Origin: Eledone cirrhosa
Lineage: Eukaryota
Assembly: GCA_964016885.1 (NCBI GenBank)
Contig: OZ024741.1
Coordinates: 165,044,001 to 165,108,000 of the forward strand
Direction of reading: 5' to 3'
DNA length: 64,000 bases
Position numbers and translations under genes: made by a program. The notes under the pieces were generated by a model. The model was not told where the DNA came from, did no database searches, and saw nothing but the letters and a program-made list of their open reading frames with translations. Positions 20,075 through 62,400 of the stretch are shown here, piece after piece. Positions within the stretch are counted from its first letter, which is position 1; each line of letters starts with the position of its first letter.

Positions 20075-23000
20075 GATAGCTGTTATAAAAGTAGTTGAAA
20101 TATAATAACTGTGATAGGAGCAGGATAAGTATAACCATTAACTGTTATAGGAACGGTAGGAACAAGACTAATAACTGCTATAGGAGTAGGATAAATGTAA
20201 CTTAACCGTTATCAGAACAGTAGGAATGAGATTAATAACTGTTATAGAAGCAGGATAAATATAACTGCTAACTGTTATAGGAACAGTAGGAACGAGACTA
20301 ATAACTGTTATAGGAACAGTAGGAACAAGACTAATAACTGTTATAGGAACAGTAGGAACAAGACTAATAACTGTTATAGGAAAAGTAGGAACACGACTAA
20401 TAACTGTTATAGGAACAGTAGGAACACGACTAATAACTGTTATAGGAACAGTAGGAACACAACTAATAACTGTTATAGGAACAGTAGGAACAAGACTAAT
20501 AACTGTTATAGGAACAGGATGAATATAACTGGTAACTGTTATATGAACAGTAGGAACACGACTAATAACTGTTATAGGAACAGTAGGAACAAGACTAATA
20601 ACTGTTATAGGAACAGTAGGAACAAGACTAATAACTGTTATAGGAACAGTAGGAACAAGACTAATAACTGTTATAGGAACAGTAGGAACAAGACTAATAA
20701 CAGTTATAGGAACAGTAGGAACAAGACTAATAACTGTTATAGGAACAGTAGGAACAAGACTAATAACTGTTATAGGAACAGTAGGAACAAGACTAATAAC
20801 TGTTATAGGAACAGTAGGAACAAGACTAATAACTGTTATAGGAACAGTAGGAACACGACTAATAACTGTTATAGGAACAGTAGGAACAAGACTAACTGTT
20901 ATAGGAACATTAGGAACAAGACTAATAACTGTTATAGGAACAGTAGGAACAAGACTAATAACTGTTATAGGAACAGTAGGAACAAGACTAATAACTGTTA
21001 TAGGAACATTAGGAACAAGACTAATAACTGTTATAGGAACAGTAGGAACACGACTAATAACTGTTATAGGAACAGTAGGAACACGGCTAATAACTGTTAT
21101 AGGAACAGTAGGAACACGACTACTAACTGTTATAGGAACAGTAGGAACAAGACTAATAACTGTTATAGGAACAGTAGGAACAAGACTAATAACTGTTATA
21201 GGAACAGGATGAATATAACTGCTAACTGTTATAGGAGCAGTAGGAACACGACTAATAACTGTTATAGGAACAGTAGGAACAAGACTAATAACTGTTATAG
21301 GAACAGTAGGAACAAGACTAATAACTGTTATAGGAACAGTAGGAACAAGACTAATAACTATTATAGGAATAGTAGGAACAAGACTAACTGTTAAAGGAAC
21401 AGTAGGAACACGACTAATAACTGTTATAGGAACAGTAGGAACACGACTAATAACTGTTATAGGAACAGTAGGAACAAGACTAATAACTGTTATAGGAACA
21501 TTAGGAACAAGACTAATAACTGTTATAGGAACAGTAGGAACACGACTAATAACTGTTATAGGAACAGTAGGAACACGACTAATAACTGTTATAGGAAAAG
21601 TAGGAACAAGACTAATAACTGTTATAGGAACAGTAGGAACAAGACTAATAACTGTTATAGGAACATTAGGAACAAGACTAATAACTGTTATAGGAACAGT
21701 AGGAACACGACTAATAACTGTTATAGGAACAGTAGGAACACGGCTAATAACTGTTATAGGAACAGTAGGAACACGACTACTAACTGTTATAGGAACAGTA
21801 GGAACAAGACTAATAACTGTTATAGGAACAGTAGGAACAAGACTAATAACTGTTATAGGAACAGGATGAATATAACTGCTAACTGTTATAGGAGCAGTAG
21901 GAACACGACTAATAACTGTTATAGGAACAGTAGGAACAAGACTAATAACTGTTATAGGAACAGTAGGAACAAGACTAATAACTGTTATAGGAACAGTAGG
22001 AACAAGACTAATAACTATTATAGGAATAGTAGGAACAAGACTAACTGTTAAAGGAACAGTAGGAACACGACTAATAACTGTTATAGGAACAGTAGGAACA
22101 CGACTAATAACTGTTATAGGAACAGTAGGAACAAGACTAATAACTGTTATAGGAACATTAGGAACAAGACTAATAACTGTTATAGGAACAGTAGGAACAC
22201 GACTAATAACTGTTATAGGAACAGTAGGAACACGACTAATAACTGTTATAGGAAAAGTAGGAACAAGACTAATAACTGTTATAGGAACAGTAGGAACAAG
22301 ACTAATAACTGTTATAGGAACAGTAGGAACACGACTAATAACTGTTATAGGAACAGTAGGAACAAGACTAATAACTGTTATAGGAAAAGTAGGAACAAGA
22401 CTGATAACTGTTATAGGAACAGTAGGAACACGACTAATAACTATTATAGGAACAGTAGGAACAAGACTAATAACTGTTATAGGAACAGTAGGAACAAGAC
22501 TAATAACTGTTATAGGAACAGTAGGAACACCACTAATAACTGTTATAGGAACAGTAGGAACAAGACTAATAACTGTTATAGGAACAGTAGGAACAAGACT
22601 AATAACTGTTATAGGAACAAGACTAATAACTGTTATAGGAACAGTAGGAACAAGACTAATAACTGTTATAGGAACAGTAGGAACACGACTAATAACTGTT
22701 ATAGGAACAGTAGGAACGAGACTAATATCTGTTATAGGAACAGTAGGAACAAGACTAATAACTGTTATAGGAAAAGTAGGAACAAGACTAATAACTGTTA
22801 TAGGAACAGTAGGAACAAGACTAATAACTGTTATAGGAACAGTAGGAACAAGACTAATAACTGTTATAGGAACAGTAGGAACACGACTAATAACTGTTAT
22901 AGGAACAGTAGGAACAAGACTAATAACTGTTATAGGAACAGTAGGAACAAGACTAATAACTGTTATAGGAACAGTAGGAACAAGACTAATAACTGTTATA

Positions 23001-26000
23001 GGAACAGTAGGAACAAGACTAATAACTGTTATAGGAACAAGACTAATAACTGTTATAGGAACAGTAGTAACAAGACTAATAACTGTTATAGGAACAGTAG
23101 GAACACGACTAATAACTGTTATAGGAACAGTAGGAACGAGACTAATAACTGTTATAGGAACAGTAGGAACACGACTAATAACTATTATAGGAACAGTAGG
23201 AACAAGACTAATAACTGTTATAGGAACAGTAGGAACAAGACTAATAACTGTTATAGGAACAGTAGGAACACGACTAATAACTGTTATAGGAACAGTAGGA
23301 ACAAGACTAATAACTGTTATAGGAACAGTAGGAACAAGACTAATAACTTTTATAGGAACAGTAGGAACAAGACTAATAACGGTTATAGGAACAGGATGAA
23401 TATAACTGCTAACTGTTATAGGAACAATAGGAACACGACTAATAACTGTTATAGGAACAGTAGGAACAAGACTAATAACTGTTATAGGAACAGTAGGAAC
23501 AAGACTAATAACTGTTATAGGAACAGTAGGAACAAGACTAATAACTATTATAGGAATAGTAGGAACAAGACTAACTGTTAAAGGAACAGTAGGAACACGA
23601 CTAATAACTGTTATAGGAACAGTAGGAACACGACTAATAACTGTTATAGGAACAGTAGGAACAAGACTAATAACTGTTATAGGAACATTAGGAACAAGAC
23701 TAATAACTGTTATAGGAACAGTAGGAACACGACTAATAACTGTTATAGGAACAGTAGGAACACGACTAATAACTGTTATAGGAAAAGTAGGAACAAGACT
23801 AATAACTGTTATAGGAACAGTAGGAACACGACTAATAACTGTTATAGGAACAGTAGGAACAAGACTAATAACTGTTATAGGAAAAGTAGGAACAAGACTG
23901 ATAACTGTTATAGGAACAGTAGGAACACGACTAATAACTATTATAGGAACAGTAGGAACAAGACTAATAACTGTTATAGGAACAGTAGGAAGAAGACTAA
24001 TAACTGTTATAGGAACAGTAGGAACACGACTAATAACTGTTATAGGAACAGTAGGAACAAGACTAATAACTGTTATAGGAACAGTAGGAACAAGACTAAT
24101 AACTGTTATAGGAACAGTAGGAACAAGACTAATAACTGTTATAGGAACAGTAGGAACAAGACTAATAACTGTTATAGGAACAGTAGGAACGAGACTAATA
24201 ACTGTTATAGGAACAGTAGGAACGAGACTAATAACTGTTATAGGAAAAGTAGGAACAAGACTAATAACTGTTATAGGAACAGTAGGAACTAGACTAATAA
24301 CTGTTATAGGAACAGTAGGAACAAGACTAATAACTGTTATAGGAACAGTAGGAACAAGACTAATAACTGTTATAGGAACAGTAGGAACACGACTAATAAC
24401 TGTTATAGGAACAGTAGGAACAAGACTAATAACTGTTATAGGAACAGTAGGAACAAGACTAATAACTGTTATAGGAACAAGACTAATAACTGTTATAGGA
24501 ACAGTAGTAACAAGACTAATAACTGTTATAGGAACAGTAGGAACCCGACTAATAACTGTTATAGGAACAGTAGGAACGAGACTAATAACTGTTATAGGAA
24601 CAGTAGGAACACGACTAATAACTATTATAGGAACAGTAGGAACAAGACTAATAACTGTTATAGGAACAGTAGGAACAAGACTAATAACTGTTATAGGAAC
24701 AGTAGGAACACGACTAATAACTGTTATAGGAACAGTAGGAACAAGACTAATAGCTGTTATAGGAACAGTAGGAACACGACTAATAACTGTTATAGGAACA
24801 GTAGGAACAAGACTAATAACTGTTATAGGAACAGTAGGAACAAGACTAATAACTGTTATAGGAACAGTAGGAACAAGACTAATAACTGTTATAGGAACAG
24901 TAGGAACAAGACTAATAACTGTTATAGGAACAGTAGGAACAAGACTAATAACTGTTATAGGAACAAGACTAATAACTGTTATAGGAACAGTAGGAACAAG
25001 ACTAATAACTGTTATAGGAACAGTAGGAACAAGACTAATAACTGTTATAGGAACAGTAGGAACACGACTAATAACTGTTATAGGAACAGTAGGAACACGA
25101 CTAATAACTGTTATAGGAACAGTAGGAACAAGACTAATAACTGTTATAGGAACAGTAGGAACAAGACTAATAACTGTTATAGGAACAGTAGGAACAAGAC
25201 TAATAACTGTTATAGGAACAGTAGGAACAAGACTAATAACTATTATAGGAATAGTAGGAACAAGACTAACTGTTAAAGGAACAGTAGGAACACGACTAAT
25301 AACTGTTATAGGAACAGTAGGAACACGACTAATAACTGTTATAGGAACAGTAGGAACAAGACTAATAACTGTTATAGGAACATTAGGAACAAGACTAATA
25401 ACTGTTATAGGAACAGTAGGAACACGACTAATAACTGTTATATGAACAGTAGGAACACGACTAATAACTGTTATAGGAAAAGTAGGAACAAGACTAATAA
25501 CTGTTATAGGAACAGTAGGAACACGACTAATAACTGTTATAGGAACAGTAGGAACAAGACTAATAACTGTTATAGGAAAAGTAGGAACAAGACTGATAAC
25601 TGTTATAGGAACAGTAGGAACACGACTAATAACTATTATAGGAACAGTAGGAACAAGACTAATAACTGTTATAGGAACAGTAGGAACAAGACTAATAACT
25701 GTTATAGGAACAGTAGGAACACGACTAATAACTGTTATAGGAACAGTAGGAACAAGACTAATAACTGTTATAGGAACAGTAGGAACAAGACTAATAACTG
25801 TTATAGGAACAGTAGGAACAAGACTAATAACTGTTATAGGAACAGTAGGAACAAGACTAATAACTGTTATAGGAACAGTAGGAACAAGACTAATATCTGT
25901 TATAGGAACAGTAGGAACGAGACTAATAACTGTTATAGGAACAGTAGGAACAAGACTAATAACTGTTATAGGAACAGTAGGAACAAGACTAATAACTGTT

Positions 26001-29000
26001 ATAGGAACAGTAGGAACAAGACTAATAACTGTTATAGGAACAGTAGGAACAAGACTAATAACTGTTATAGGAACAGTAGGAACAAGACTAATAACTGTTA
26101 TAGGAACAGTAGGAACACGACTAATAACTGTTATAGGAACAGTAGGAACAAGACTAATAACTGTTATAGGAACAGTAGGAACAAGACTAATAACTGTTAT
26201 AGGAACAGTAGGAACAAGACTAATAACTGTTATAGGAACAGTAGGAACAAGACTAATAACTGTTATAGGAACAAGACTAATAACTGTTATAGGAACAGTA
26301 GTAACAAGACTAATAACTGTTATAGGAACAGTAGGAACACGACTAATAACTGTTATAGGAACAGTAGGAACGAGACTAATAACTGTTATAGGAACAGTAG
26401 GAACACGACTAATAACTATTATAGGAACAGTAGGAACAAGACTAATAACTGTTATAGGAACAGTAGGAACAAGACTAATAACTGTTATAGGAACAGTAGG
26501 AACACGACTAATAAATGTTATAGGAACAGTAGGAACAAGACTAATAACTGTTATAGGAACAGTAGGAACACGACTAATAACTGTTATAGGAACAGTAGGA
26601 ACAAGACTAATAACTGTTATAGGAACAGTAGGAACAAGACTAATAACTGTTATAGGAACAGTAGGAACAAGACTAATAACTGTTATAGGAACAGTAGAAA
26701 CAAGACTAATAACTGTTATAGGAACAGTAGGAACACAACTAATAACTGTTATAGGAACAGTAGGAACAAGACTAATAACTGTTATAGGACCAGTAGGAAC
26801 AAGACTAATAACTGTTATAGGAACAGTAGGAACAAGACTAATAACTGTTATAGGAACAGTAGGAACACGACTAATAACTGTTATAGGAATAGTAGGAAGA
26901 AGACTAATAACTGTTATAGGAACAGTAGGAACAAGACTAATAACTGTTATAGGAACAGTAGGAACAAGACTAATAACTGTTATAGGAACAGTAGGAACAA
27001 GACTAATAACTGTTATAGGAACAGTAGGAACACGACTAATAACTGTTATAGGAACAGTAGAAACAAGACTAATAACTGTTATAGGAACAGTAGGAACACG
27101 ACTAATAACTGTTATAGGAACAGTAGGAACAAGACTAATAACTGTTATAGGAACAGTAGGAACAAGACTAATAACTGTTATAGGAACAGTAGGAACAAGA
27201 CTAATAACTGTTATAGGAACAGTAGGAACAAGACTAATAACTGTTATAGGAACAGTAGGAACAAGACTAATAACTATTATAGGAATAGTAGGAACAAGTC
27301 TAACTGTTAAAGGAACAGTAGGAACACGACTAATAACTGTTATAGGAACAGTAGGAACACGACTAATAACTGTTATAGGAACAGTAGGAACAAGACTAAT
27401 AACTGTTATAGGAACAGTAGGAACATGACTAATAACTGTTATAGGAACATTAGGAACAAGACTAATAACTGTTATAGGAACAGTAGGAACACGACTAATA
27501 ACTGTTATAGGAACAGTAGGAACGAGACTAATAACTGTTATAGGAACAGTAGGAACAAGACTAATAACTGTTATAGGGAAAGTAGGAACAAGACTAATAA
27601 CTGTTATAGGAACAGTAGGAACAAGACTAATAACTGTTATAGGAACAGTAGGAACAAGACTAATAACTGTTATAGGAACAGTAGGAACAAGACTAATAAC
27701 TGTTATAGGAACAGTAGGAACAAGACTAATAACTGTTATAGGAACAGTAGGAACACGACTAATAACTGTTATAGGAACAGTAGGAACAAGACTAATAACT
27801 GTTGTAGGAACAAGACTAATAACTGTTATAGGAACAGTAGGAACAAGACTAATAACTGTTATAGGAACAGTAGGAACAAGACTAATAACTGTTATAGGAA
27901 CAAGACTAATAACTGTTATAGGAACAGTAGGAACAAGACTAATAACTGTTATAGGAACAGTAGGAACACGACTAATAACTATTATAGGAACAGTAGGAAC
28001 AAGACTAATAACTGTTATAGGAACAGTAGGAACAAGACTAATAACTGTTATAGGAACAGTAGGAACACGACTAATAACTGTTATAGGAACAGTAGGAACA
28101 AGACTAATAACTGTTATAGGAACAGTAGGAGCACGACTAATAACTGTTATAGGAACAGTAGGAACAAGACTAATAACTGTTATAGGAACAGTAGGAACAA
28201 GACTAATAACTGTTATAGGAACAGTAGGAACACGACTAATAACTGTTATAGGAACAAGACTAATAACTGTTATAGGAACAGTAGGAACAAGACTAATAAC
28301 TGTCATAGGAACAGTAGGAACAAGACTAATAACTGTTATAGGAACAGTAGGAACAAGACTAATAACTGTTATAGGAACAGTAGGATCAAGACTAATAACT
28401 ATTATAAGAACAGTAGGAACAAGACTAATAACTGTTATAGGAACAGTAGGAACACGACTAATAACTGTTATAGGAACAGTAGGAACAAGACTAATAACTG
28501 TTATAGGAACAGTAGGAACAAGACTAATAACTGTTATAGGAACAGTAGGAACAAGACTAATAACTGTTATAGGAACAGTAGGAACAAGACTAATAACTGT
28601 TATAGGAACAGTAGGAACACGACTAATAACTGTTATAGGAACAGTAGGAACAAGACTAATAACTGTTATAGGAACAGTAGGAACAAGACTAATAACTGTT
28701 ATAGGAACAGTAGGAACAAAACTAATAACTATTATAGGAATAGTAGGAACAAGACTAACTGTTAAAGGAACAGTAGGAACACGACTAATAACTGTTATAG
28801 GAACAGTAGGAACACGACTAATAACTGTTATAGGAACAGTAGGAACAAGACCTTATAACTGTTATAGGAACATTAGGAACAAGACTAATAACTGTTATAG
28901 GAACAGTAGGAACACGACTAATAACTGTTATAGGAACAGTAGGAACACGACTAATAACTGTTATAGGAACAGTAGGAACACGACTAATAACTGTTATAGG

Positions 29001-31500
29001 AACAGTAGGAACACGACTAATAACTGTTATAGGAACAGTAGGAACACGACTAATAACTGTTATAGGAACAGTAGGAACACGACTAATAACTGTTATAGAA
29101 ACAGTAGGAACACGGCTAATAACTGTTATAGGAACAGTAGGAACACGACTAATAACTGTTATAGGAACAGTAGGAACAAGACTAATAACTGTTATAGGAA
29201 CAGTAGGAACAAGACTAATAACTGTTATAGGAACAGGATGAATATAACTGCTAACTGTTATAGGAACAGTAGGAACACGACTAATAACTGTTATAGGAAC
29301 AGTAGGAACAAGACTAATAACTGTTATAGGAACAGTAGGAACAAGACTAATAACTGTTATAGGAACAGTAGGAACAAGACTAATAACTATTATAGGAATA
29401 GTAGGAACAAGACTAACTGTTAAAGGAACAGTAGGAACACGACTAATAACTGTTATAGGAACAGTAGGAACAAGACTAATAACTGTTATAGGAAAAGTAG
29501 GAACAAGACTAATAACTGTTATAGGAACAGTAGGAACACGACTAATAACTATTATAGGAACAGTAGGAACAAGACTAATAACTGTTATAGGAACAGTAGG
29601 AACAAGACTAATAACTGTTATAGGAACAGTAGGAACAAGACTAATAACTGTTATAGGAACAGTAGGAACACGACTAATAACTGTTATAGGAACAGTAGGA
29701 ACAAGACTAATAACTGTTATAGGAACAGTAGGAACAAGACTAATAACTGTTATAGGAACAGTAGGAACAAGACTAATAACTGTTATAGGAACAGTAGGAA
29801 CAAGACTAATAACTGTTATAGGAACAGTAGGAACAAGACTAATAACTGTTATAGGAACAGTAGGAACAAGACTAATAACTGTTATAGGAACAGTAGGAAC
29901 ACGACTAATAACTGTTATAGGAACAGTAGGAACGAGACTAATAACTGTTATAGGAACAGTAGGAACAAGACTAATAACTGTTATAGGAAAAGTAGGAACC
30001 AGACTAATAACTGTTATAGGAACAGTAGGAACCAGACTAATAACTGTTATAGGAACAGTAGGAACAAGACTAATAACTGTTATAGGAAAGTAGGAACAAG
30101 ACTAATAACCGTTATAGGAACAGTAGGAACAAGACTAATAACTGTTATAGGAACAGTAGGAACACGACTAATAACTGTTATAGGAACAGTAGGAACAAGA
30201 CTAATAACTGTTATAGGAACAGTAGGAACAAGACTAATAACTGTTATAGGAACAGTAGGAACAAGACTAATAACTGTTATATGAACAGTAGGAACACGAC
30301 TAATAACTGTTATAGGAACAGTAGGAACGAGACTAATAACTGTATAGGAACAGTAGGAACACGACTAATAACTATTATAGGAACAGTAGGAACAAGACTA
30401 ATAACTGTTATAGGAACAGTAGGAACAAGACTAATAACTGTTATAGGAACAGTAGGAACACGACTAATAACTGTTATAGGAACAGTAGGAACAAGACTAA
30501 TAACTCTTATAGGAACAGTAGGAACAAGACTAATAACTGTTATAGGAACAGTAGGAACACGACTAATAACTGTTATAGGAACAGTAGGAACAAGACTAAT
30601 AACTGTTATAGGAACAGTAGGAACAAGACTAATAACTGTTATAGGAACAGTAGGAACAAGACTAATAACTGTTATAGGAACAGTAGGAACAAGACTAATA
30701 ACTGTTATAGGAACAGTAGGAACAAGACTAATAACTGTTATAGGAACAGTAGAAACAAGACTAATAACTGTTATAGGAACAGTAGGAACACAACTAATAA
30801 CTGTTATAGGAACAGTAGGAACAAGACTAATAACTGTTATAGGAACAGTAGGAACAAGACTAATAACTGTTATAGGAACAGTAGGAACAAGACTAATAAC
30901 TGTTATAGGAACAGTAGAAACACGACTAATAACTGTTATAGGAACAGTAGGAACAAGACTAATAACTGTTATAGGAACAGTAGGAACAAGACTAATAACT
31001 GTTATAGGAACAGTAGGAACAAGACTAATAACTGTTATAGGAACAGTAGGAACAAGACTAATAACTGTTATAGGAACAGTAGGAACAAGACTAATAACTG
31101 TTATAGGAACAGTAGGAACACGACTAATAACTGTTATAGGAACAGTAGGAACAAGACTAATAACTGTTATAGGAACAGTAGGAACAAGACTAATAACTGT
31201 TATAGGAACAGTAGGAACAAGACTAATAACTGTTATAGGAACAGTAGGAACAAGACTAATAACTGTTATAGGAACAGTAGGAACAAGACTAATAACTGTT
31301 ATAGGAACAGTAGGAACAAGACTAATAACTGTTATAGGAACAGTAGGAACAAGACTAATAACTGTTATAGGAACAGTAGGAACACGACTAATAACTGTTA
31401 TAGGAACAGGATGAATATAACCGTTAACTGTTATAGGAGCATGATGACTATAATAACTGTTATAGGAACAGTAACAATGCAATTGACAACTGTTATAGGT
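20075..31500. repeat. 33-bp minisatellite, ~340 units, consensus ATAACTGTTATAGGAACAGTAGGAACAAGACTA
   Basis: Directly visible, with 30-bp and 24-bp variants and diverged units at both edges. It generates the VPTVPITVISL, NNCYRNSRNKT and ITVIGTVGTRL ORFs. Confidence 0.98.
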
Positions 31501-37001: not shown

Positions 37002-37205
37002 ATAGGAACGAGTAGGACCCCAACAGCTGAGCTCAAGCCGTTTCGACGGCTAATTCTGGACTATTTTTAGTCCAAATTAGCCTTCAAAACGGCTTGAGCT
37101 CAGCCGTCGGGGTCCTACTCGTTCCTATTACCCACTCTACTACCCTAAGTATTGAGTACTTTAGTGCGTTATGGTCCATCTGGTTCCTTACCATATTTCC
37201 TTCGT
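37002..37205 (+). mobile_element. Hairpin-plus-tail repeat family, copy 2
   Basis: Fold-back 37002-37128 (ataggaacgagtaggacccc / ggggtcctactcgttcctat) with the same tail as 13549-13625. A degenerate antisense third copy lies at ~49580-49680. Confidence 0.8.
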
Positions 37206-37210
37206 TATAT

Positions 37211-37443
37211 ATATTGAAAGAGTGAAGAATAACATGGCCAACAGTACAAAAAATGGTTTTATTTACAGTATTAACAATTGTTTCACTGATTAAGTTGTCT
37301 AAAAATTGCTGAACACTTGAAGCTGTGCCACTCAATTTTAAATACGATGTTAGCTTAACCAGATCATCAGAAAGGACTGTTAATACTGTAAATAAAACCC
37401 TTTTTTGTACTGTTGACCATGTTATTCTTCACTCTTTCAATAT
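37211..37443 (-). ncRNA. Inverted repeat (~66-bp arms) enclosing a damaged hammerhead ribozyme core
   Basis: Minus strand: CUGAUGA (37370-37364), stem II cugguuaag/cuuaaucag with a long loop, GAAA (37284-37281), palindromic CAAUUG, then UU. Proximal stem I is disrupted. Confidence 0.5.
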
Positions 37444-38568: not shown

Positions 38569-38622
<54 letters not shown>

Positions 38623-38753
38623 GGAGTTGTATTTAATTTGTTGGAATTCCGACAAACATATATGTTTATAACTGATATAGAGCACTCAACAAGTTACTGG
38701 AGTAAATATTCCAAGATAATAATAAATGGAAACTATATTTATAAAACCATATT

Positions 38754-38818
38754 TATTTTATTATATATATTTCAAGGGCGACCAAGCAAATATTGGTGCG
38801 CTTTCATCAGATAAAATA
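38754..38818 (-). ncRNA. Minimal type I hammerhead ribozyme (mirror copy)
   Basis: Reverse complement reads UAUUUUAU CUGAUGA aagcgcaccaauauuugcuuggucgcccuu GAAA UAUAUA UA AUAAAAUA. Confidence 0.8.
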
Positions 38819-39695
38819 CAAAATTTGTTTTATAAATAATGACATACCCATGGAAATCACACCTTAACGGTCCAAAGATTCGTTGGATAGTGGAGACTTA
38901 TTAGGGATAATACAAAGTTATGTGTGAATATGCAAATGAATTTATGAAAAATTGAAAAAACAACCATTTATTTAAATTACGCTGGGGGAGGATGAGAAGA
39001 AAGAGAGAGCGAATAAATATTTTTAAGTATTTTAGAATAATTTTAAACATTTTAAATAGTTTATTTTTTAAAAAGGTTTTTTTGGAGTATCTTTTGAGAT
39101 TCTTAAAAATTTTTTAAAAACTTTTTCCAGAAATTTTTTCCAGAACTTTTAATAATTTTTATATTATTTACTTTTTAATATTTTCTAATATTTTTACATT
39201 TTTAATATTTTTTAATATTTCTTAATATTTTTGTAATATAACCAATAACTAATTCTGGCTAAATATATCTTTCAAAACTTATATCTTCGTCAAAATGGTC
39301 TCATACTAACTAATAAATAAACAAAATTGGGATTTTCACTATCTTCCCAATTTAAAATATTTAAAATATTAGAAACATATAAATATTCATATTAACTCAG
39401 TTAATTTAATTACTTACACTAAATATAAATATAAACCAGTATCTCTCATAAATTATTAAAATAATTATCTATAACAGAATATACCTATATATCCACTCAC
39501 ATATCCTCTATTCATATATCTATTCTTCTATCTGTAATTTTCATTTATTTTCTACTTATCAATTTATTTTTCAATATATATTATTATATTTTCAATATAT
39601 ATTCTTATATATATATTTACTTTTTCTATATGTCTATTTTTTTTCTATATATATATTTTTCTTTTTACCTATAAAACTTAATATTATATTGTATT

Positions 39696-39880
39696 TGGAT
39701 TGGCAGTATTGGGAGAAGGTCGGACGCCATGCTTTGACGTATAGAGTTACGGCCCTTGCCATTCTGAGTTCAAATCCCGCCAAGGTTAACTTTCCCTTTA
39801 ATCCTTACGGGGTCGATAAAATAAAGTACCAGTAATGCACTGAGTTATTGCTGGCCTTGTGCCTAACGTAGAAACAATTA
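39696..39880 (+). mobile_element. tRNA-derived SINE inserted in the spacer of the inverted element
   Basis: Same A box, B box, core and 3' end as the 1806 copy. Confidence 0.9.
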
Positions 39881-40233
39881 TATTAGAATTCTAACAACAA
39901 AATAATTACTAAATATATGTAACTCTAATATAAATTTAAGACTTATTTACGTTATATGAGTTCATCCTCTGTTAAATTTCTCTCTTCTCTCTATTTTTTT
40001 ATATATCTCATAACAATAATTTTTTTCGCTCTCTCTTTCTTCTCATCCTCCCCCAGCGTAATTTAAATAAACGGTTGTTTTTTAAATTTTTTAAATTTTT
40101 AAATTTTTCATAAATTCATTTGCATATTCACACATAACTCTGTATTACCCCTAAGTCTCCACTATCCAGCGAATGTTCGGACCGTTAAGGTGTCATTTCC
40201 ATGGGTATGTCATTATTTATAAAACAAATTTTG

Positions 40234-40298
40234 TATTTTATCTGATGAAAGCGCACCAAGATTTGCTTGGTCGCCCTTGAAATATATATAATAAAATA
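40234..40298 (+). ncRNA. Minimal type I hammerhead ribozyme
   Basis: Stem I tattttat (40234-41) / ataaaata (40291-98) is a perfect 8 bp. Core CTGATGA at 40242-48; stem II aagcgcaccaag-atttg-cttggtcgccctt; GAAA at 40279-82; palindromic TATATA stem III; UA with predicted cleavage after 40290. Confidence 0.82.
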
Positions 40299-40339
40299 AA
40301 TATGGTTTTATAAATATAGTTTCCATTTATTATTATCTT

Positions 40340-40398
<59 letters not shown>

Positions 40399-53350: not shown

Positions 53351-53439
53351 TAGATCCAGTTTCAGTGTTGGTGGTGTTGATGTTGATAGTTGTGGTAGTG
53401 ATGTTGATATTGGTAGTGTTGGTGATAGTAGTGATGTTG

Positions 53440-56400
53440 ATGTTGTTGGTGTTGTTGGTGTTGTTGGTGTTGGTAGTGTTGTTAGTGTTCTTAGTGTTGG
53501 TAGTGGTGTTGGTAGTGTTGTTGGTGTTGGTAGTGTTGTTGGTGTTCTTAGTGTTGGTAGTTTTGTTGGTGTTGGTAGTGTTGTTGGTGTTCTTAGTGTT
53601 GGTAGTGTTCTAAGTGTTGGTAGTGTTCTTAGTGTTGGTAGTTTTGTTGGTGTTGGTAGTGTTGTTGGTGTTCTTAGTGTTGGTAGTGTTCTAAGTGTTG
53701 GTAGTGTTCTTAGTGTTGGTAGTTTTGTTGGTGTTGGTAGTGTTGTTGGTGTTCTTAGTGTTGGTAGTGTTCTAAGTGTTGGTAGTGTTCTTAGTGTTGG
53801 TAGTTTTGTTGGTGTTGGTAGTGTTGTTGGTGTTCTTAGTGTTCTAAGTGTTGGTAGTGTTCTTAGTGTTGGTAGTGTTGTTTGTGTTGGTAGTGTTGGT
53901 AGTGTTCTTAGTGTTGGTAGTTTTGTTGGTGTTGGTAGTGTTGTTGGTGTTGGTAGTGTTGTTGGTGTTCTTAGTGTTGGTAGTGTTGTTGGTGTTGGTA
54001 GTGTTATTGGTGTTCTTAGTGTTGGTAGTGTTGTTGGTGTTCTTAGTGTTGGTAGTGTTGTTGGTGTTGGTAGTGTTGGTGGTGTTCTTAGTGTAGGTAG
54101 TGTTGTTGGTGTTGGTAGTGTTGTTAGTGTTGTTGGTGTTGGTAGTGTTGGTGGTGTTCTTAGTGTTGGTAGTGTTGTTGGTGTTCTTAGTGTTGGTAGT
54201 GTTGTTGGTGTTGGTAGTGTTGTTGGTGTTGGTAGTGTTGTTGGTGTTGGTAGTGTTGTTGGTATTGGTAGTGTTCTTAGTGTTGGTAGTGTTGGTAGTG
54301 TTGTTGGTGTTGGTAGTGTTGTTGGTGTTGGTAGTGTTCTTAGTGTTGGTAGTGTTCTTAGTGTTGGTAGTGTTCTTAGCGTTGTTTGTGTTGGTAGTGT
54401 TCTTAGTGTTGGTAGTGTTGTTGATGTTGGTAGTGTTGGTAGTGTTCTTAGTGTTGGTAGTGTTGTTGGTGTTGGTGGTGTTGGTAGTGTTGTTGGTGTT
54501 GGTAGTGTTCTTAGTGTTGGTAGTGTTGGTAGTGTTGTTGGTGTTGGTAGTGTTGGTAGTGTTGGTAGTGTTGTTGGTGTTCTTATTGTTGGTAGTGTTG
54601 TTGGTGTTCTTAGTGTTGGTAGTGTTGTTGGTGTTGGTCGTGTTGGTAGTGTTGTTGGTGTTGGTCGTGTTGGTAGTGTTGTTGGTGTTGGTAGTGTTGG
54701 TAGTGTTGTTTGTGTTGGTAGTGTTGTTGGTGTTCTTATTGTTGGTAGTGTTGTTGGTGTTCTTAGTGTTGGTAGTGTTGTTGGTGTTGGTAGTGTTGGT
54801 AGTGTTGTTGGTGGTCTTAGTGTTGGTAGTGTTGTTGGCGTTGTTAGTGTTGTTGGTGTTCTTAGTGTTGGTAGTGTTGTTTGTGTTGGTAGTGTTGTTG
54901 GTGTTGGTAGTGTTGTTGGTGTTGGTAGTGTTGTTGGTGTTGGTAGTGTTGTTGGTGTTGGTAGTGTTGTTGGTGTTCTTAGTGTTGGTAGTGTTGTTGG
55001 TGTTGCTAGTGTTGTTGGTGTTGGTAGTGTTGTTGGTGTTGGTAGTGTTGTTGGTGTTGGTAGTGTTGTTGGTGTTGTTGGTGTTGGTAGTGTTGTTGGT
55101 GTTCTTAGTGTTGGTAGTGTTGTTGGTGTTCTTAGTGTTGGTAGTGTTGTTGGTGTTGGTAGTGTTGGTAGTGTTGTTGGTGGTCTTAGTGTTGGTAGTG
55201 TTGTTGGTGTTGTTAGTGTTGTTGGTGGTCTTAGTGTTGGTAGTGTTGTTGGTGTTGGTAGTGTTGTTGGTGTTCTTATTGTTGGTAGTGTTGTTGGTGT
55301 TGGTAGTGTTGTTGGTGTTGTTAGTGTTGGTAGTGTTGTTGGTGTTGGTAGTGTTGTTGGTGGTCTTAGTGTTGGTAGTGTTGTTGGTGTTCTTAGTGTT
55401 GGTAGTGTTGTTGGTGTTGGTAGTGTTGTTGGTGTTGTTAGTGTTGGTAGTGTTGTTGGTGTTGGTAGTGTTGTTGGTGATCTTAGTGTTGGTAGTGTTG
55501 TTGGTGTTGGTAGTGTTGTTGGTGTTCTTATTGTTGGTAGTGTCATTGGTGTTGGTAGTGTTGTTGGTGTTCTTAGTGTTGGTAGTGTTGTTGGTGTTCT
55601 TAGTGTTGGTAGTGTTGTTGGTGTTGGTAGTGTTGTTGGTGTTGTTGGTGTTGGTAGTGTTGTTGGTGTTGGTAGTGTTGTTGGTGATCTTAGTGTTGGT
55701 AGTGTTGTTGGTGTTGGTAGTGTTGTTGGTGTTGGTAGTGTTGTTGGTGTTGGTAGTGTTGTTGGTGTTGTTGGTGTTGTTAGTGTTGTTAGTGTTGTTG
55801 GTGTTGTTAGTGTTGGTAGTGTTGTTGGTGTTGGTAGTGTTCTTAGTGTTGGTAGTGTTGTTGGTGTTGGTGGTGTTGGTAGTGTTGTTGGTGTTGGTAG
55901 TGTTGTTGGTGGTCTTAGTGTTGGTAGTGTTGTTGGTGTTCTTAGTGTTGGTAGTGTTGTTGGTGTTGGTAGTGTTGGTAGTGTTGTTGGTGTTGGTAGT
56001 GTTGTTGGTGTTGTTAGTGTTGGTAGTGTTGTTGGTGTTGGTAGTGTTGTTGGTGTTGGTAGTGTTGTTGGTGTTCTTATTGTTGGTAGTGTCATTGGTG
56101 TTGGTAGTGTTGTTGGTGTTCTTAGTGTTGGTAGTGTTGTTGGTGTTCTTAGTGTTGGTAGTGTTGTTGGTGTTGGTAGTGTTGTTGGTGTTGTTGGTGT
56201 TGGTAGTGTTGTTGGTGTTGGTAGTGTTGTTGGTGATCTTAGTGTTGGTAGTGTTGTTGGTGTTGGTAGTGTTGTTGGTGTTGGTAGTGTTGTTGGTGTT
56301 GGTAGTGTTGTTGGTGTTGTTGGTGTTGTTAGTGTTGGTAGTGTTGTTGGTGTTGTTAGTGTTGGTAGTGTTGTTGGTGTTGGTAGTGTTCTTAGTGTTG

Positions 56401-59400
56401 GTAGTGTTGTTGGTGTTGGTGGTGTTGGTAGTGTTGTTGGTGTTGGTAGTGTTGGTGGTGTTCTTAGTGTTGGTGGTGTTGGTAGTATTGTTGGTGTTGG
56501 TAGTGTTCTTAGTGTTGGTAGTGTTGGTAGTGTTGTTGGTGTTGGTAGTGTTGGTAGTGTTGGTAGTGTTGTTGGTGTTCTTATTGTTGGTAGTGTTGTT
56601 GGTGTTCTTAGTGTTGGTAGTGTTGTTGGCGTTCTTAGTGTTGGTAGTGTTGTTGGTGTTGGTCGTGTTGGTAGTGTTGTTGGTGTTGGTAGTGTTGGTA
56701 GTGTTGTTTGTGTTGGTAGTGTTGTTGGTGTTCTTATTGTTGGTAGTGTTGTTGGTGTTCTTAGTGTTGGTAGTGTTGTTTGTGTTGGTAGTGTTGTTGG
56801 TGTTGGTAGTGTTGTTGGTGTTGGTAGTGTTGTTGGTGTTGGTAGTGTTGTTGGTGTTGGTAGTGTTGTTGGTGTTCTTAGTGTCGGTAGTGTTGTTGGT
56901 GTTGGTAGTGTTGTTGGTGGTCTTAGTGTTGGTAGTGTTGTTGGTGTTGGTAGTGTTGTTGGTGGTCTTAGTGTTGGTAGTGTTGTTGGTGTTGGTAGTG
57001 TTGTTGGTGTTCTTATTGTTGGTAGTGTTGTTGGTGGTCTTAGTGTTGGTAGTGTTGTTGGTGTTGGTAGTGTTGTTGGTGCTGGTAGTGTTGTTGGTGT
57101 TGGTAGTGTTGGTAGTGTTGTTGGTGTTGGTAGTGTTGTTGGTGTTCTTAGTGTTGGTAGTGTTGTTGGTGTTGGTAGTGTTGGTAGTGTTGTTGGTGTT
57201 GGTAGTATTGTTGGTGTTGGTAGTGTTGGTAGTGTTGTTGGTGTTCTTAGTGTTGTTGGTGTTGTTGGTGTTGGTAGTGTTGTTGGTGGTCTTAGTATTG
57301 GTAGTATTGTTGGTGTTCTTAGTGTTGGTAGTGTTGTTGGTGTTGGTAGTGTTGGTAGTGTTGTTGGTGTTGGTAGTGTTGCTGGTGTTGGCAGTGTTGG
57401 TAGTGTTGTTGGTGTTCTTAGTGTTGGTAGTGTTCTTAGTGTTGGTAGTGTTGTTGGTGTTGGTAGTGTTGGTAGTGTTGTTGGTGGTCTTAGTGTTGGT
57501 AGTGTTGTTGGTGGTCTTAGTGTTGGTAGTTTTGTTGGTGTTGGTAGTGTTGTTGGTGTTCTTAGTGTTGGTAGTGTTGTTGGTGTTGTTGGTGTTGGTA
57601 GTGTTGGTAGTGTTGTTGGTGTTGGTAGTGTTGTTGGTGTTGGTTGTGTTGGTAGTGTTGTTGGTGTTCTTAGTGTTGGTAGTGTTGTTGGTGTTGGTAG
57701 TGTTGGTAGTGTTGTTGGTGTTGGTAGTGTTGTTGGTGTTCATAGTGTTGGTAGTGTTGTTGGTGTTGGTAGTGTTGGTAGTGTTCTTAGTGTTGGTAGT
57801 GTTCTTAGTGTTGGTAGTGTTGGTGGTGGTCTTAGTGTTGGTAGTGTTGTTGGTGGTCTTAGTGTTGGTAGTGTTGTTGGTGGTCTTAGTGTTGGTAGTG
57901 TTGTTGGTGTTCTTAGTGTTGGTAGTGTTGTTGGTGTTGGTAGTGTTGTTGGTGTTCTTAGTCTTGGTAGTGTTGTTGGTGTTGTTAGTGTCGTTGGTGT
58001 TCTTAGTGTTGGTAGTGTTGTTGGTGTTGTTAGTGTCGTTGGTGTTCTTAGTCTTGGTAGTGTTGTTGGTGTTGTTAGTGTCGTTGGTGTTCTTAGTGTT
58101 GGTAGTGTTGTTGGTGTTGGTAGTGTTGTTGGTGTTGGTAGTGTTGTTGGTGTTCTTAGTGTTGGTAGTGTTGTTGGTGTTGTTAGTGTCGTTGGTGTTC
58201 TTAGTGTTGGTAGTGTTGTTGGTGTTGTTAGTGTCGTTGGTGTTCTTAGTGTTGGTAGTGTTGTTGGTGTTGGTAGTGTCGGTAGTGTTCTTAGTGTTGG
58301 TAGTGTTGTTGATGTTCTTAGTGTTGGTAGTGTTGTTGGTGCTGGTAGTGTTGGTAGTGTTGTTGGTGTTCTTAGTGTTGGTAGTGTTGTTGGTGTTGGT
58401 AGTGTTGTTGGTGTTCTTAGTGTTGTTAGTGTTGTTGGTGACGTTAGTGTTGTTGGTGTTCTTAGTGTCGTTAGTGTTGTTGGTGTTCTTAGTGTTGGTA
58501 GTGTTGTTGGTGTTGTTAGTGTCGTTGGTGTTCTTAGTGTTGGTAGTGTTGTTGGTGTTGGTAGTGTTGTTGGTGTTGGTAGTGTTGGTAGTGTTGTTGG
58601 TGTTCTTAGTGTTGGTAGTGTTGTTGGTGTTGTTAGTGTCGTTGGTGTTCTTAGTGTTGGTAGTGTTGTTGGTGTTGGTAGTGTTGTTGGTGTTCTTAGT
58701 GTTGGTAGTGTTGTTGGTGTTGGTAGTGTTGTTGGTGTTGGTAGTGTTGGTAGTGTTGTTAGTGTTGTTGGTGTTGGTAGTGTTGGTAGTTTTGTTGGTG
58801 TTGGTAGTGTTGGTAGTGTTGTTGGTGGTCTTAGTGTTGGTAGTGTTGTTGGTGTTGGTAGTGTTGGTAGTGTTGTTGGTGGTCTTAGTGTTGGTAGTGT
58901 TGTTGGTGTTGGTAGTGTTTTTGGTGTTCTTAGTGTTGGTAGTGTTGTTGGTGTTGGTAGTGTTGGTAGTGTTGGTAGTGTTGTTGGTGTTGGTAGTGTT
59001 GGTAGTGTTGGTAGTGTTGTTGGTGGTCTTAGTGTTGGTAGTGTTGTTGGTGTTGGTAGTGTTGGTAGTGTTGTTGGTGGTCTTAGTGTTGGTAGTGTTG
59101 TTGGTGGTCTTAGTGTTTTTGGTGTTCTTAGTGTTGGTAGTGTTGGTAGTGTTGTTAGTGTTGGTAGTGTTATTGGTGGTCCTAGTGTTGGTAGTGTTGT
59201 TGGTGTTGGTAGTGTTGGTAGTGTTGGTAGTGTTGTTGGTGGTCTTAGTGTTGGTAGTGTTGTTGGTGTTGGTAGTGTTGGTAGTGTTGTTGGTGTTCTT
59301 AGTGTTGGTAGTGTTGTTGGTGTTGGTAGTGTTGTTGGTGTTCTTAGTGTTGTTAGTCTTGTTGGTGTTGGTAGTGTTGTTGGTGTTCTTAGTGTTGGTA

Positions 59401-62400
59401 GTGTTGTTGGTGTTGGTAGTGTTGTTGGTGTTCTTAGTGTTGGTAGTGTTGTTGGTGTTGGTAGTGTTGTTGGTGTTCTTAGTGTTGGTAGTGTTGTTGG
59501 TGTTGGTAGTGTTGTTGGTGTTGGTAGTGTTGGTAGTGTTGTTAGTGTTGTTGGTGTTGGTAGTGTTGGTAGTTTTGTTGGTGTTGGTAGTGTTGGTAGT
59601 GTTGTTGGTGGTCTTAGTGTTGGTAGTGTTGTTGGTGTTGGTAGTGTTGGTAGTGTTGTTGGTGGTCTTAGTGTTGGTAGTGTTGTTGGTGTTGGTAGTG
59701 TTTTTTGGTGTTCTTAGTGTTGGTAGTGTTGGTAGTGTTGTTAGTGTTGGTAGTGTTGTTGGTGTTGGTAGTGTTGTTGGTGTTCTTAGTATTGGTAGTG
59801 TTGTTGGTGTTGGTAGTGTTGTTGGTGTTCTTAGTGTTGGTAGTGTTGGTAGTGTTGGTAGTGTTGTTGGTGTTGGTAGTGTTGTTGGTGTTGGTAGTGT
59901 TGGTAGTGTTGTTGGTGTTCTTAGTGTTGGTAGTGTTGTTGGTGTTGGTAGTGTTGTTGGTGTTCTTAGTGTTGGTAGTGTTGTTGGTGTTGGTAGTGTT
60001 GTTGGTGTTCTTAGTGTTGGTGGTGTTGGTAGTGTTGGTAGTGTTGTTGGTGGTCTTAGTGTTGTTAGTGTTGGTAGTGTTGTTGGTGTTGGTAGTGTTG
60101 GTAGTGTTGTTGGTGTTGGTAGTGTTTTTGGTGTTCTTAGTGTTGGTAGTGTTGGTAGTGTTGTTTGTGGTCTTAGTGTTGTTAGTGTTGGTAGTGTTGT
60201 TGGTGTTGGTAGTGTTGTTGGTGTTCTTAGTATTGGTAGTGTTGTTGGTGTTGGTAGTGTTGTTGGTGTTCTTAGTGTTGGTAGTGTTGTTGGTGTTGGT
60301 AGTGTTGGTAGTGTTGTTGGTAGTGTTGGTAGTGTTGGTAGTGTTGTTGGTGTTCTTAGTGTTGGTAGTGTTGTTGGTGTTGGTAGTGTTGTTGGTGTTC
60401 TTAGTGTTGGTAGTGTTGTTGGTGTTGGTAGTGTTGGTAGTGTTGTTGGTGTTGGTGTTGGTAGTGTTGGTAGTGTTGTTGGTGTTCTTAGTGTTGGTAG
60501 TGTTGTTGGTGTTGTTAGTGTTGTTGGTGTTCTTAGTGTTGGTAGTGTTGTTGGTGTTGGTAGTGTTGGTAGTGTTGTTGGTGGTCTTAGTGTTGTTAGT
60601 GTTGGTAGTGTTGTTGGTGTTGGTAGTGTTGGTAGTGTTGTTGGTGGTCTTAGTGTTGGTAGTGTTGTTGGTGTTCTTAGCGTTGCTAGTGTTGTTGGTG
60701 TTCTTAGTGTTGGTAGTGTTGTTGGTGTTCTTAGTGTTGTTGGTGTTGGTAGTGTTGTTAGCGTTGCTAGTGTTGTTGGTGTTGGTAGTGTTGTTGGTGG
60801 TCTTAGTGTTGGTAATGTTGTTGGTGTTCTTAGTGTTGGTAGTGTTGTTGGTGTTGATAGTGTTGTTGGTGTTGGTAGTGTTGTTGGTGTTGGTAGTGTT
60901 TTTGGTGTTGGTAGTGTTGTTGGTGTCGTTAGTGTTGGTAGTGTTATTGGTGGTCCTAGTGTTGGTAGTGTTGTTGGTGTTCTTAGTGTTGGTAGTGTTG
61001 TTGGTGTTGGTAGTGTTGTTGGTGTTCTTAGTGTTGGTAGTGTTGTTGGTGTTGGTAGTGTTGTTGGTGTTCTTAGTGTTGGTAGTGTTGTTGGTGTTGG
61101 TAGTGTTGTTGGTGTTCTTAGTGTTGGTAGTGTTGTTGGTGTTGGTAGTGTTGGTAGTGTTGTTGGTGTTGGTAGTGTTGGTAGTTTTGTTGGTGTTGGT
61201 AGTGTTGGTAGTGTTGTTGGTGGTCTTAGTGTTGGTAGTGTTGTTGGTGTTGGTAGTGTTGGTAGTGTTGTTGGTGGTCTTAGTGTTGGTAGTGTTGTTG
61301 GTGTTGGTAGTGTTTTTGGTGTTCTTAGTGTTGGTAGTGTTGTTAGTGTTGTTAGTGTTGGTAGTGTTGTTGGTGTTGGTAGTGTTGTTGGTGTTCTTAG
61401 TATTGGTAGTGTTGTTGGTGTTGGTAGTGTTGTTGGTGTTCTTAGTGTTGGTAGTGTTGGTAGTGTTGTTGGTGTTGGTAGTGTTGTTGGTGTTGGTAGT
61501 GTTGGTAGTGTTGTTGGTGTTCTTAGTGTTGGTAGTGTTGTTGGTGTTGGTAGTGTTGTTGGTGTTCTTAGTGTTGGTAGTGTTGTTGGTGTTGGTAGTG
61601 TTGGTAGTGTTGTTGGTGTTGGCAGTGTTGTTGGTGTTGGTAGTGTTGGTAGTGTTGTTGGTGTTCTTAGTGTTGGTAGTGTTGTTGGTGTTGGTAGTGT
61701 TGTTGGTGTTCTTAGTGTTGGTGGTGTTGGTAGTGTTGGTAGTGTTGTTGGTGGTCTTAGTGTTGTTAGTGTTGGTAGTGTTGTTGGTGTTGGTAGTGTT
61801 GGTAGTGTTGTTGGTGTTGGTAGTGTTTTTGGTGTTCTTAGTGTTGGTAGTGTTGGTAGTGTTGTTTGTGGTCTTAGTGTTGTTAGTGTTGGTAGTGTTG
61901 TTGGTGTTGGTAGTGTTGTTGGTGTTCTTAGTATTGGTAGTGTTGTTGGTGTTGGTAGTGTTGTTGGTGTTCTTAGTGTTGGTAGTGTTGGTAGTGTTGT
62001 TGGTGTTGGTAGTGTTGTTGGTGTTGGTAGTGTTGGTTAGTGTTGTTGGTGTTCTTAGTGTTGGTAGTGTTGTTGGTGTTGGTAGTGTTGTTGGTGTTCT
62101 TAGTGTTGGTAGTGTTGTTGGTGTTGGTAGTGTTGGTAGTGTTGTTGGTGTTGGTAGTGTTGTTGGTGTTGGTAGTGTTGGTAGTGTTGGTAGTGTTGTT
62201 GGTGTTCTTAGTGTTGGTAGTGTTGTTGGTGTTGGTAGTGTTGTTGGTGTTCTTAGTGTTGGTAGTGTTGTTGGTGTTGGTAGTGTTGTTGGTGTTCTTA
62301 GTGTTGGTAGTGTTGTTGGTGTTGGTAGTGTTGGTAGTGTTGTTGGTGTTGGTAGTGTTGTTGGTGTTGGTAGTGTTGGTAGTGTTGTTGGTGTTGGTAG

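What the first reader, a model, noticed from the sequence alone, without database searches (positions are those of the whole stretch)
38621..40341. Protein-less inverted element carrying two intact, divergent minimal hammerhead ribozymes
Seen: two ~300-bp inverted arms each contain a complete type I hammerhead (8-bp stem I, CUGAUGA, long stem II, GAAA, self-complementary UAUAUA stem III, AUA cleavage triplet), one per strand and pointing outward. The element is bounded by (TA)n and encodes nothing. Known: Penelope-like elements carry minimal type I hammerheads with palindromic stem III in their pseudo-LTRs, cleave best as dimers, and often integrate with an inverted partial pLTR; retrozymes are non-coding hammerhead-carrying retroelements. 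Inference: this is a non-autonomous PLE/retrozyme-like family. A read-through transcript on either strand would carry one sense ribozyme and could also fold its arms into ~300 bp of dsRNA that hides it. The (UA)n stem III, which matches the (TA)n target, is unusual.
Basis: partly seen in the sequence, partly recalled or inferred. Interest (0 to 1): 0.75.

Follow-up and report, generated by a model that had tools for sequence, protein, structure and literature searches.

The report
Two-armed stump of Penelope retrotransposon
The two ribozyme motifs are real, but they are the ordinary ribozyme-bearing tail end of a protein-coding Penelope-type jumping gene, inserted here as two truncated back-to-back pieces that were likely copied from one uncut RNA into both ends of a broken TA repeat; it is not a separate protein-free element.

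Summary
Observation confirmed; interpretation only partly. Both type I hammerheads are there (cores at +40242 and -38810). The element is not a protein-less family. The right arm (39014-40341, interrupted by a SINE) is the 3' UTR of an ORF-bearing retrotransposon: 90% identical to a copy whose ORF stops 425 nt upstream. That ORF folds like telomerase RT and meets every listed Hydra-clade motif. The left arm is an inverted, 5'-truncated second copy with a 91-nt tail. Among the 40 best-scored genomic candidates none shares the inversion joint. This layout, (TA)n targeting and hammerheads on both strands are published for the Hydra clade (Penelope-13_HM). Family data add mechanism: 0 of 53 partner arms carry a tail; 36 of 134 arm 5' ends sit about 130 nt upstream of the ribozyme cut (likely transcription start), none at the cut; arms of one insertion share minority alleles seven times more than shuffled pairs. 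Likely: both target ends primed on one uncleaved RNA at two fixed sites. Cleavage and expression are untested. This scan noted the same pattern before on other DNA of this genome and others.

The parts
38581..38619 (.). Left (TA)n target tract
   Evidence: 67 of 81 tail-anchored loci have 3 or more TA units within 12 nt of the tail end
38620..38710 (-). 91-nt 'tail': sequence between the two fixed 3' ends (site A, 38711; site B, 38620). In tandem copies it runs on through a short AU dinucleotide tract into the 5' UTR and ATG
   Evidence: 5 loci continue into the 5' UTR: L031, L057, L058, L060, L102
38711..39017 (-). Left arm: inverted, 5'-truncated copy of the element's 3' end (-256 to +51 relative to the cut)
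38736..38838 (-). Left type I hammerhead motif (core C at 38810, predicted cut after 38762)
38891..38891 (-). Position matching the family's 5' pile-up (-130), Inr-like; likely transcription start of the pLTR (right-arm equivalent 40161)
   Evidence: Inr-like motif in pLTRs described in PMC3846280
39014..39017 (.). Inversion joint with about 4 nt shared by both arms
   Evidence: not seen in other scored copies
39014..40341 (+). Right arm: 5'-truncated 3' UTR and end of a Hydra-clade Penelope-like element (-1093 to +51), no tail
   Evidence: 90.5% and 89.5% identical to L052, whose ORF stops 425 nt upstream of the joint
39697..39876 (+). Later SINE-like insertion (about 180 nt, ATT duplicated), absent from sister copies
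   Evidence: reads skipping 39692-39877 in 2 of 3 runs
40214..40316 (+). Right type I hammerhead motif (core 40242-40248, GAAA 40279-40282, predicted cut after 40290) with extended stem I
40342..40394 (.). Right (TA)n target tract

Best explanation
This is one dead, truncated insertion of a protein-coding Hydra-clade Penelope-like retrotransposon, made of two back-to-back copies of its hammerhead-bearing 3' end that were likely reverse-transcribed from one uncleaved RNA onto both ends of a cut (TA)n tract. Shown: family identity, anatomy, the two fixed 3' ends, tail on one arm only, the 5' pile-up, allele sharing between arms. Inferred: the element's GIY-YIG nuclease cuts (TA)n; one free end primes at site B (about 141 nt past the ribozyme cut, at an AU tract that can pair with the target), the other at site A (+51); both cDNAs run upstream through the intact hammerhead, stop early, and are joined head to head by a few shared bases. 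Most family insertions stop at -130, the likely transcription start; here both arms pass it (-256, -1093), so the template would have been the downstream pLTR of a longer-than-unit transcript. A SINE landed later. The hammerhead is a maintained family structure predicted to need a partner RNA or protein to cut; nothing shows that it cuts at this locus.
For: Right arm 90% identical to the 3' UTR of ORF-bearing L052. L058 has pLTR-tail-743-codon frame-3'UTR-hammerhead. The model of that protein (pLDDT 84.5) matches reverse transcriptases; 5 of the top 10 PDB hits are telomerase RTs. Hydra motifs are present in family copies. 692 exact matches of a 32-nt hammerhead piece, control 0; among the first 100 listed, 13 divergent pairs within 10 kb and 0 convergent (counted by hand). 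Of 81 tail-anchored loci 53 have an inverted partner; 0 of 53 partners carry a tail and 48 of 53 end at site A. Of 134 arm 5' ends, 36 fall at -135..-126 and 0 at -5..+5; binomial p about 1e-19 against a uniform spread of the 84 ends between -135 and +5. In 33 two-arm insertions the arms share 58 minority alleles in 4922 positions (1.18%) vs 0.16% in shuffled pairs, 0 of 2000 shuffles reaching it; the window's arms share 3. In vitro, a Poseidon PLE extends both strands, starts at two internal sites that bound the tail, and uses uncleaved RNA (PMC11167929).
Against: No RNA data. Allele sharing could also come from conversion between arms or from one subfamily being active at a time; the window's arms still differ at 10 sites plus 2 indels. 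The link between 'tail arm stops at -130' and 'partner is short' was not significant (0 of 10 vs 11 of 43, Fisher p=0.10), and L090 pairs a long tail arm with a partner at -134. The locus sample was picked by an exact tail match, so one tail per locus is by design. Automatic chaining has errors (L087 tail arm -151 vs -126; L031 anchored on an internal tail; a very short partner missed in L137). No fully intact ORF was seen: P0001 has changed catalytic-motif residues. Pfam gave no RT hit for family copies. PMC3846280 reads head-to-head repeats as self-priming on an antisense template.
Confidence: 0.85

Rival explanations
1. A non-autonomous, protein-free family (retrozyme or mini-PLE) that spreads as the two-arm unit or as a short -130..+141 RNA, borrowing the Hydra enzyme.
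For: Short copies dominate the family: 110 of 134 arms start downstream of -136. The window element itself encodes nothing. Non-LTR retrozymes are proposed to be PLE derivatives (bioRxiv 10.64898/2026.07.22.740005). Solo short pLTR copies keep the likely promoter and could be re-copied.
Against: Joint positions vary from copy to copy and the window's joint was in none of the other scored matches, which stop at or near query 479 of 571 (40 of 4800 candidates scored). The interior is ORF-linked 3' UTR. No head-to-tail array or circular permutation seen in 83 mapped loci.
Confidence: 0.07
2. Same Hydra element, but the inverted arm arose by fold-back self-priming or template switching of a single cDNA (or from two separate RNAs), not by priming from both target ends on one RNA.
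For: Short shared bases or overlaps at many joints; self-priming model in PMC3846280; arms are not identical.
Against: A fold-back copy would mirror the first arm's 3' end, yet 0 of 53 partners carry the tail and both arms independently stop at -130. Two unrelated RNAs would not share minority alleles above shuffled pairs, unless from one source locus.
Confidence: 0.25
3. A MITE-like DNA transposon with long terminal inverted repeats that happens to contain a hammerhead.
For: Long inverted arms, no ORF, TA target.
Against: The ends are asymmetric (91-nt tail on one side), arm length varies from tens of bases to kilobases between copies, and arms run into an RT ORF.
Confidence: 0.01

Closest known systems
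Hydra clade of Penelope-like elements (Craig et al. 2021, PMC8557442), incl. Penelope-13_HM and Hydra-1_Obim
   Same: RW(K/R), DKT, CxCX5C linker, no CCHH, CxxC and CxH around E/N, canonical 3' hammerhead, (TA)n target; Penelope-13_HM has a 5'-truncated inverted copy with the hammerhead listed on both strands.
   Different: Hammerhead sequence differs from that listed for Hydra-1_Obim (compared by eye), so likely another family; 3' UTR about 1.5 kb and unit about 3.9 kb vs under 3 kb typical; tail 91 nt vs 30-40 nt described for PLEs.
Poseidon element PAc of Anolis (Frangieh et al. 2024, PMC11167929)
   Same: Two internal RT start sites bounding the tail, AT-rich target, both strands extended, hammerhead cleavage not needed for insertion.
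   Different: PAc starts at RNA not homologous to the cut DNA and inside the ORF; here site B lies about 50 nt before the ATG at an AU tract that matches the (TA)n target.
PLE hammerheads (Cervera and de la Pena 2014, PMC4209133)
   Same: Type I motif in pLTRs, palindromic helix III, predicted dimer; dual motifs on opposite strands 100-700 bp apart reported in Schistosoma.
   Different: Their min-HHR lacks helix III and has short helix I; this one has a 6-nt palindrome, 8-bp stem I plus a 12-bp extension, and a conserved C-C mismatch in stem II.
Animal non-LTR retrozymes (bioRxiv 10.64898/2026.07.22.740005; PMC7229834 seen as search listing only)
   Same: Non-coding DNA with type I hammerheads related to PLE pLTRs.
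   Different: Retrozymes are head-to-tail tandem monomers; this is a head-to-head, ORF-derived truncation.

Membership tests
Hydra-clade PLE | Single ORF with telomerase-like RT and C-terminal GIY-YIG-type nuclease (in the family, not in this truncated copy) | tested here: met
   743-codon frame in L058; RT fold with TERT among top hits; VVY..YIG motif in 7 of 10 aligned ORF pieces. The nuclease is assigned by motif, not by a structure hit.
Hydra-clade PLE | RWK-type N-terminal motif and DKT in place of DKG | tested here: met
   RLRWR in 2 and SDKT in 4 of 10 aligned pieces, i.e. those that reach these regions intact
Hydra-clade PLE | CxCX5C linker; CCHH absent; CxxC and CxH flanking E and N | tested here: met
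   CxCX5C in 8 of 10, CxxC..E in 4 of 10, CxH in 4 of 10 pieces; one Cys only between VVY and YIG
Hydra-clade PLE | Canonical hammerhead near the 3' end | tested here: met
Hydra-clade PLE | Insertion into (TA)n | tested here: met
   67 of 81 tail ends; both window flanks
Hydra-clade PLE | Placement inside the clade in an RT tree with published Hydra sequences | not tested
   Published sequences were only read in the supplement alignment and compared by eye; no tree with them was built
EN+ PLE insertion structure | Partial tandem pLTR, inverted 5'-truncated copy, tail at one end only | tested here: met
   L058, L031, L102 tandem; 53 of 81 with inverted partner, 0 of 53 with second tail
Non-LTR retrozyme | Head-to-tail tandem monomers, each with a hammerhead | tested here: not met
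   Not in the window nor in 83 mapped loci
Non-LTR retrozyme | No link to an own ORF | tested here: not met
   Right arm is contiguous with an ORF in sister copies
Non-LTR retrozyme | Circular RNA product | not testable with these tools
   No RNA run was listed
Type I hammerhead ribozyme | Conserved core with covarying stems | tested here: met
   160 homology-picked copies: core departs 2.2% (128 close) and 2.6% (32 distant) vs loop II 16% and 55%; basal stem II keeps pairing across variants
Type I hammerhead ribozyme | Self-cleavage | not testable with these tools
   Needs in vitro assay

The most novel reading that the evidence does not exclude
The family's insertions are a genomic record of how Penelope-type elements copy themselves: a (likely dimeric) enzyme primes both ends of a cut (TA)n on one uncut RNA at two fixed sites 91 nt apart, one of them through an AU tract that pairs with the target, and most products run off the transcription start 130 nt before the ribozyme cut; the hammerhead is kept under selection yet is never cut in the RNAs that get inserted.
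Probability: 0.5. Interest if true: 0.45.

Novelty: new member of a known kind. Interest (0 to 1): 0.2.

Why it matters
As a locus it is ordinary: one of hundreds to thousands of decayed stumps of a known retrotransposon clade. The value is in the family statistics. They turn the long-noted 'inverted pLTR with optional tail' into testable predictions (two start sites used one per target strand, a start site at -130, uncleaved template) and extend in vitro results from one lizard element to a distant clade. Three paper searches showed no description of this family's hammerhead; two searches showed no paper stating the two-end priming model for PLEs, but the library lacks most subscription papers and Repbase/Dfam could not be searched.

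Tried and rejected
Rfam scan: no hammerhead family at E<=5; the motif was established by descriptor and family comparison. Pfam and PDB sequence searches on family ORFs gave no meaningful hit; one homologue hit RVT_1 below the curated cut-off (E 1.1e-05). First fold with 10 close sequences failed (pLDDT 31.5); the second with 24 diverse sequences worked. The Atlas search returned nothing usable. No RNA holder listed; three contig runs of one sample were laid: summed depth is far higher over the hammerhead-plus-tail part than over the upstream UTR, but this is no copy number and was not used as evidence. One search had a coordinate bug and was redone. Fisher test of arm-length coupling not significant. 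Search of earlier findings by sequence returned nothing. Rejected: MITE; retrozyme array; stem III as primer site; insertion ends made by ribozyme cleavage (0 of 134 ends at the cut).

Full report
1. Observation. Two inverted arms (38711-39017 and 40021-40341) align with 10 mismatches and 2 indels. A descriptor scan of both strands of the 64-kb window found 2 type I hammerheads, at +40242 and -38810. The predicted cut is after 40290 (left arm: 38762). The left edge is 38620. Rfam had no hammerhead match. Stem I extends into a further 12-bp helix beyond an internal loop.

2. What it belongs to. A search of the own genome with the arm gave 3048 candidates, 40 scored, all 92-100% identical. An exact 32-nt piece of the hammerhead has 692 matches, reversed control 0. 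In 20 fetched neighbours the match to the window runs on from 40341 back to 39014, skipping a 180-nt SINE-like insert. Further upstream these copies carry ORF pieces; a search with one piece gave 80787 candidates, 150 scored. L052 is 90.5% and 89.5% identical to the two parts of the right arm and its ORF stops 425 nt upstream of the window's joint. L058, a more distant subfamily (76% in the ORF to L052), has pLTR, tail, a 743-codon frame, 3' UTR and a second hammerhead. With 23 outside homologues (23 of the 24 found; P0014 left out) the protein folded at pLDDT 84.5 and matched reverse transcriptases, with telomerase RTs in 5 of the top 10 hits. Its motifs are those that define the Hydra clade in Craig et al. 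2021 (PMC8557442; sections 3, 11, 12, passages and supplement parts read): RW(K/R), DKT, CxCX5C, no CCHH, CxxC and CxH. That paper reports (TA)n targeting and canonical hammerheads for the clade, lists an octopus member (Hydra-1_Obim, with a different hammerhead sequence by eye) and Penelope-13_HM, which has an inverted 5'-truncated copy and the hammerhead on both strands. Cervera and de la Pena 2014 (PMC4209133; parts 1-2 of 4 read) already report dual motifs on opposite strands.

3. Is the two-arm unit a family? A search spanning the tail, left arm and joint found no other copy crossing the joint: other matches stop at or near query 479 of 571, the longest at 502 (40 of 4800 candidates scored). 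Joints vary between insertions. Among the first 100 of 692 listed hammerhead matches there are 13 divergent pairs within 10 kb and no convergent pair (hand count). So the layout recurs but each unit is made anew.

4. Insertion anatomy. All 83 exact matches of a 25-nt tail piece were mapped; 2 near-duplicate loci were dropped. Of 81, 53 have an inverted partner arm. None of the 53 has a tail; 48 end at site A (+48 to +61 from the cut, true end +51) and 5 end earlier. Of 134 arm 5' ends, 24 lie upstream of -135, 36 at -135..-126, 48 at -125..-6, 0 at -5..+5 and 26 downstream. The pile-up base sits in an Inr-like context; an Inr-like motif in pLTRs is described in PMC3846280 (passages) and an internal promoter for Penelope in PMC2377424 (abstract only). 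In 5 loci the tail runs on through a short AU tract into the 5' UTR and ATG, so site B is an internal start whose next bases match the (TA)n target. In 33 two-arm insertions with enough overlap, arms share minority alleles at 58 of 4922 positions vs 0.16% in shuffled pairs (0 of 2000 shuffles) and differ at 4.7% vs 6.7%. Caveats: sampling by tail match, some chaining errors, conversion or subfamily timing as other sources of allele sharing, and a non-significant arm-length coupling (p=0.10).

5. The ribozyme. In 160 copies picked by homology rather than by core (duplicates not fully removed), the 11 core positions depart from the majority in 2.2% (128 close copies) and 2.6% (32 distant copies) of cells, while loop II departs in 16% and 55% and distal stem II in 7% and 31%. 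The first three stem II pairs hold in all 17 variants seen twice or more, and a C-C mismatch follows in 16 of 17. Stem III is the AU palindrome in 109 of 148 descriptor hits and another palindrome in 11. The structure was therefore maintained in source elements. Among close copies the core decays like the stems, as expected for dead copies. Cleavage was not tested.

6. Mechanism. Shown: points 1-5. Inferred: the nuclease cuts (TA)n, both ends prime on one uncleaved RNA at sites A and B, both cDNAs pass through the intact hammerhead, terminate and are joined head to head. This matches the in vitro behaviour of the lizard element PAc (PMC11167929; parts 1-2 of 4 read): both strands extended, two internal starts bounding the tail, cleavage not required. 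It differs in the target-matching AU tract at site B and the longer tail. The window's arms both pass -130, so their template would be the downstream end of a longer-than-unit transcript. A read-through RNA would be predicted to fold the arms together, but there are no RNA data.

7. Verdict. A truncated, inverted insertion of a Hydra-clade Penelope-like element; probably an unlisted family of a known clade, with a published architecture. Earlier notes of this scan describe the same pattern on other DNA of this genome and of other genomes; my family assignment and the -130 pile-up were recorded before reading them, and the allele-sharing test followed a lead from one of them. Supplements of the bioRxiv preprint (part 1 of 5 of the text read) were not seen and could list related families. 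Interest 0.2.

Noticed in passing
L031, L037, L093, L123, L147, L149, L153: The same SINE-like repeat sits at about the same point of the element (the ATT-repeat tract just before site A) in 7 separate loci, suggesting a strong target preference.
   Followed up: no
L058:3801-4010, L102, L057, L031: Predicted long-range pairing joins the region just 5' of site A to the start-codon region and encloses both insertion ends; a small hairpin before site B is kept across subfamilies. Could be the enzyme's binding site or control translation.
   Followed up: partly
window 40252 and 40275: A C-C mismatch after three base pairs of stem II is kept in 16 of 17 stem II variants; candidate tertiary contact with the stem I internal loop.
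   Followed up: partly
L054, L043, L126, L131, L064, L086, L060: Other hammerhead families with different stem II and stem III sequences lie in the fetched loci, some as divergent pairs.
   Followed up: no
L042, L047, L060, L067: Nests of several subfamilies of this element inserted close together.
   Followed up: no
L058 ORF residues about 484-507 and 578-601: Two asparagine-rich, low-confidence stretches in the ORF, recalling the N-rich inserts of rotifer Penelope elements.
   Followed up: no
window 20139-31473 and 53371-63995: Two long tandem arrays (33-bp unit, 347 copies; 27-bp unit, 398 copies); the second has stop-free frames of 2275 and 2730 codons.
   Followed up: no
window 37002-37128 and 37211-37443: Two small inverted-repeat elements (54-nt and 74-nt arms, 93% complementary), MITE-like.
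   Followed up: no
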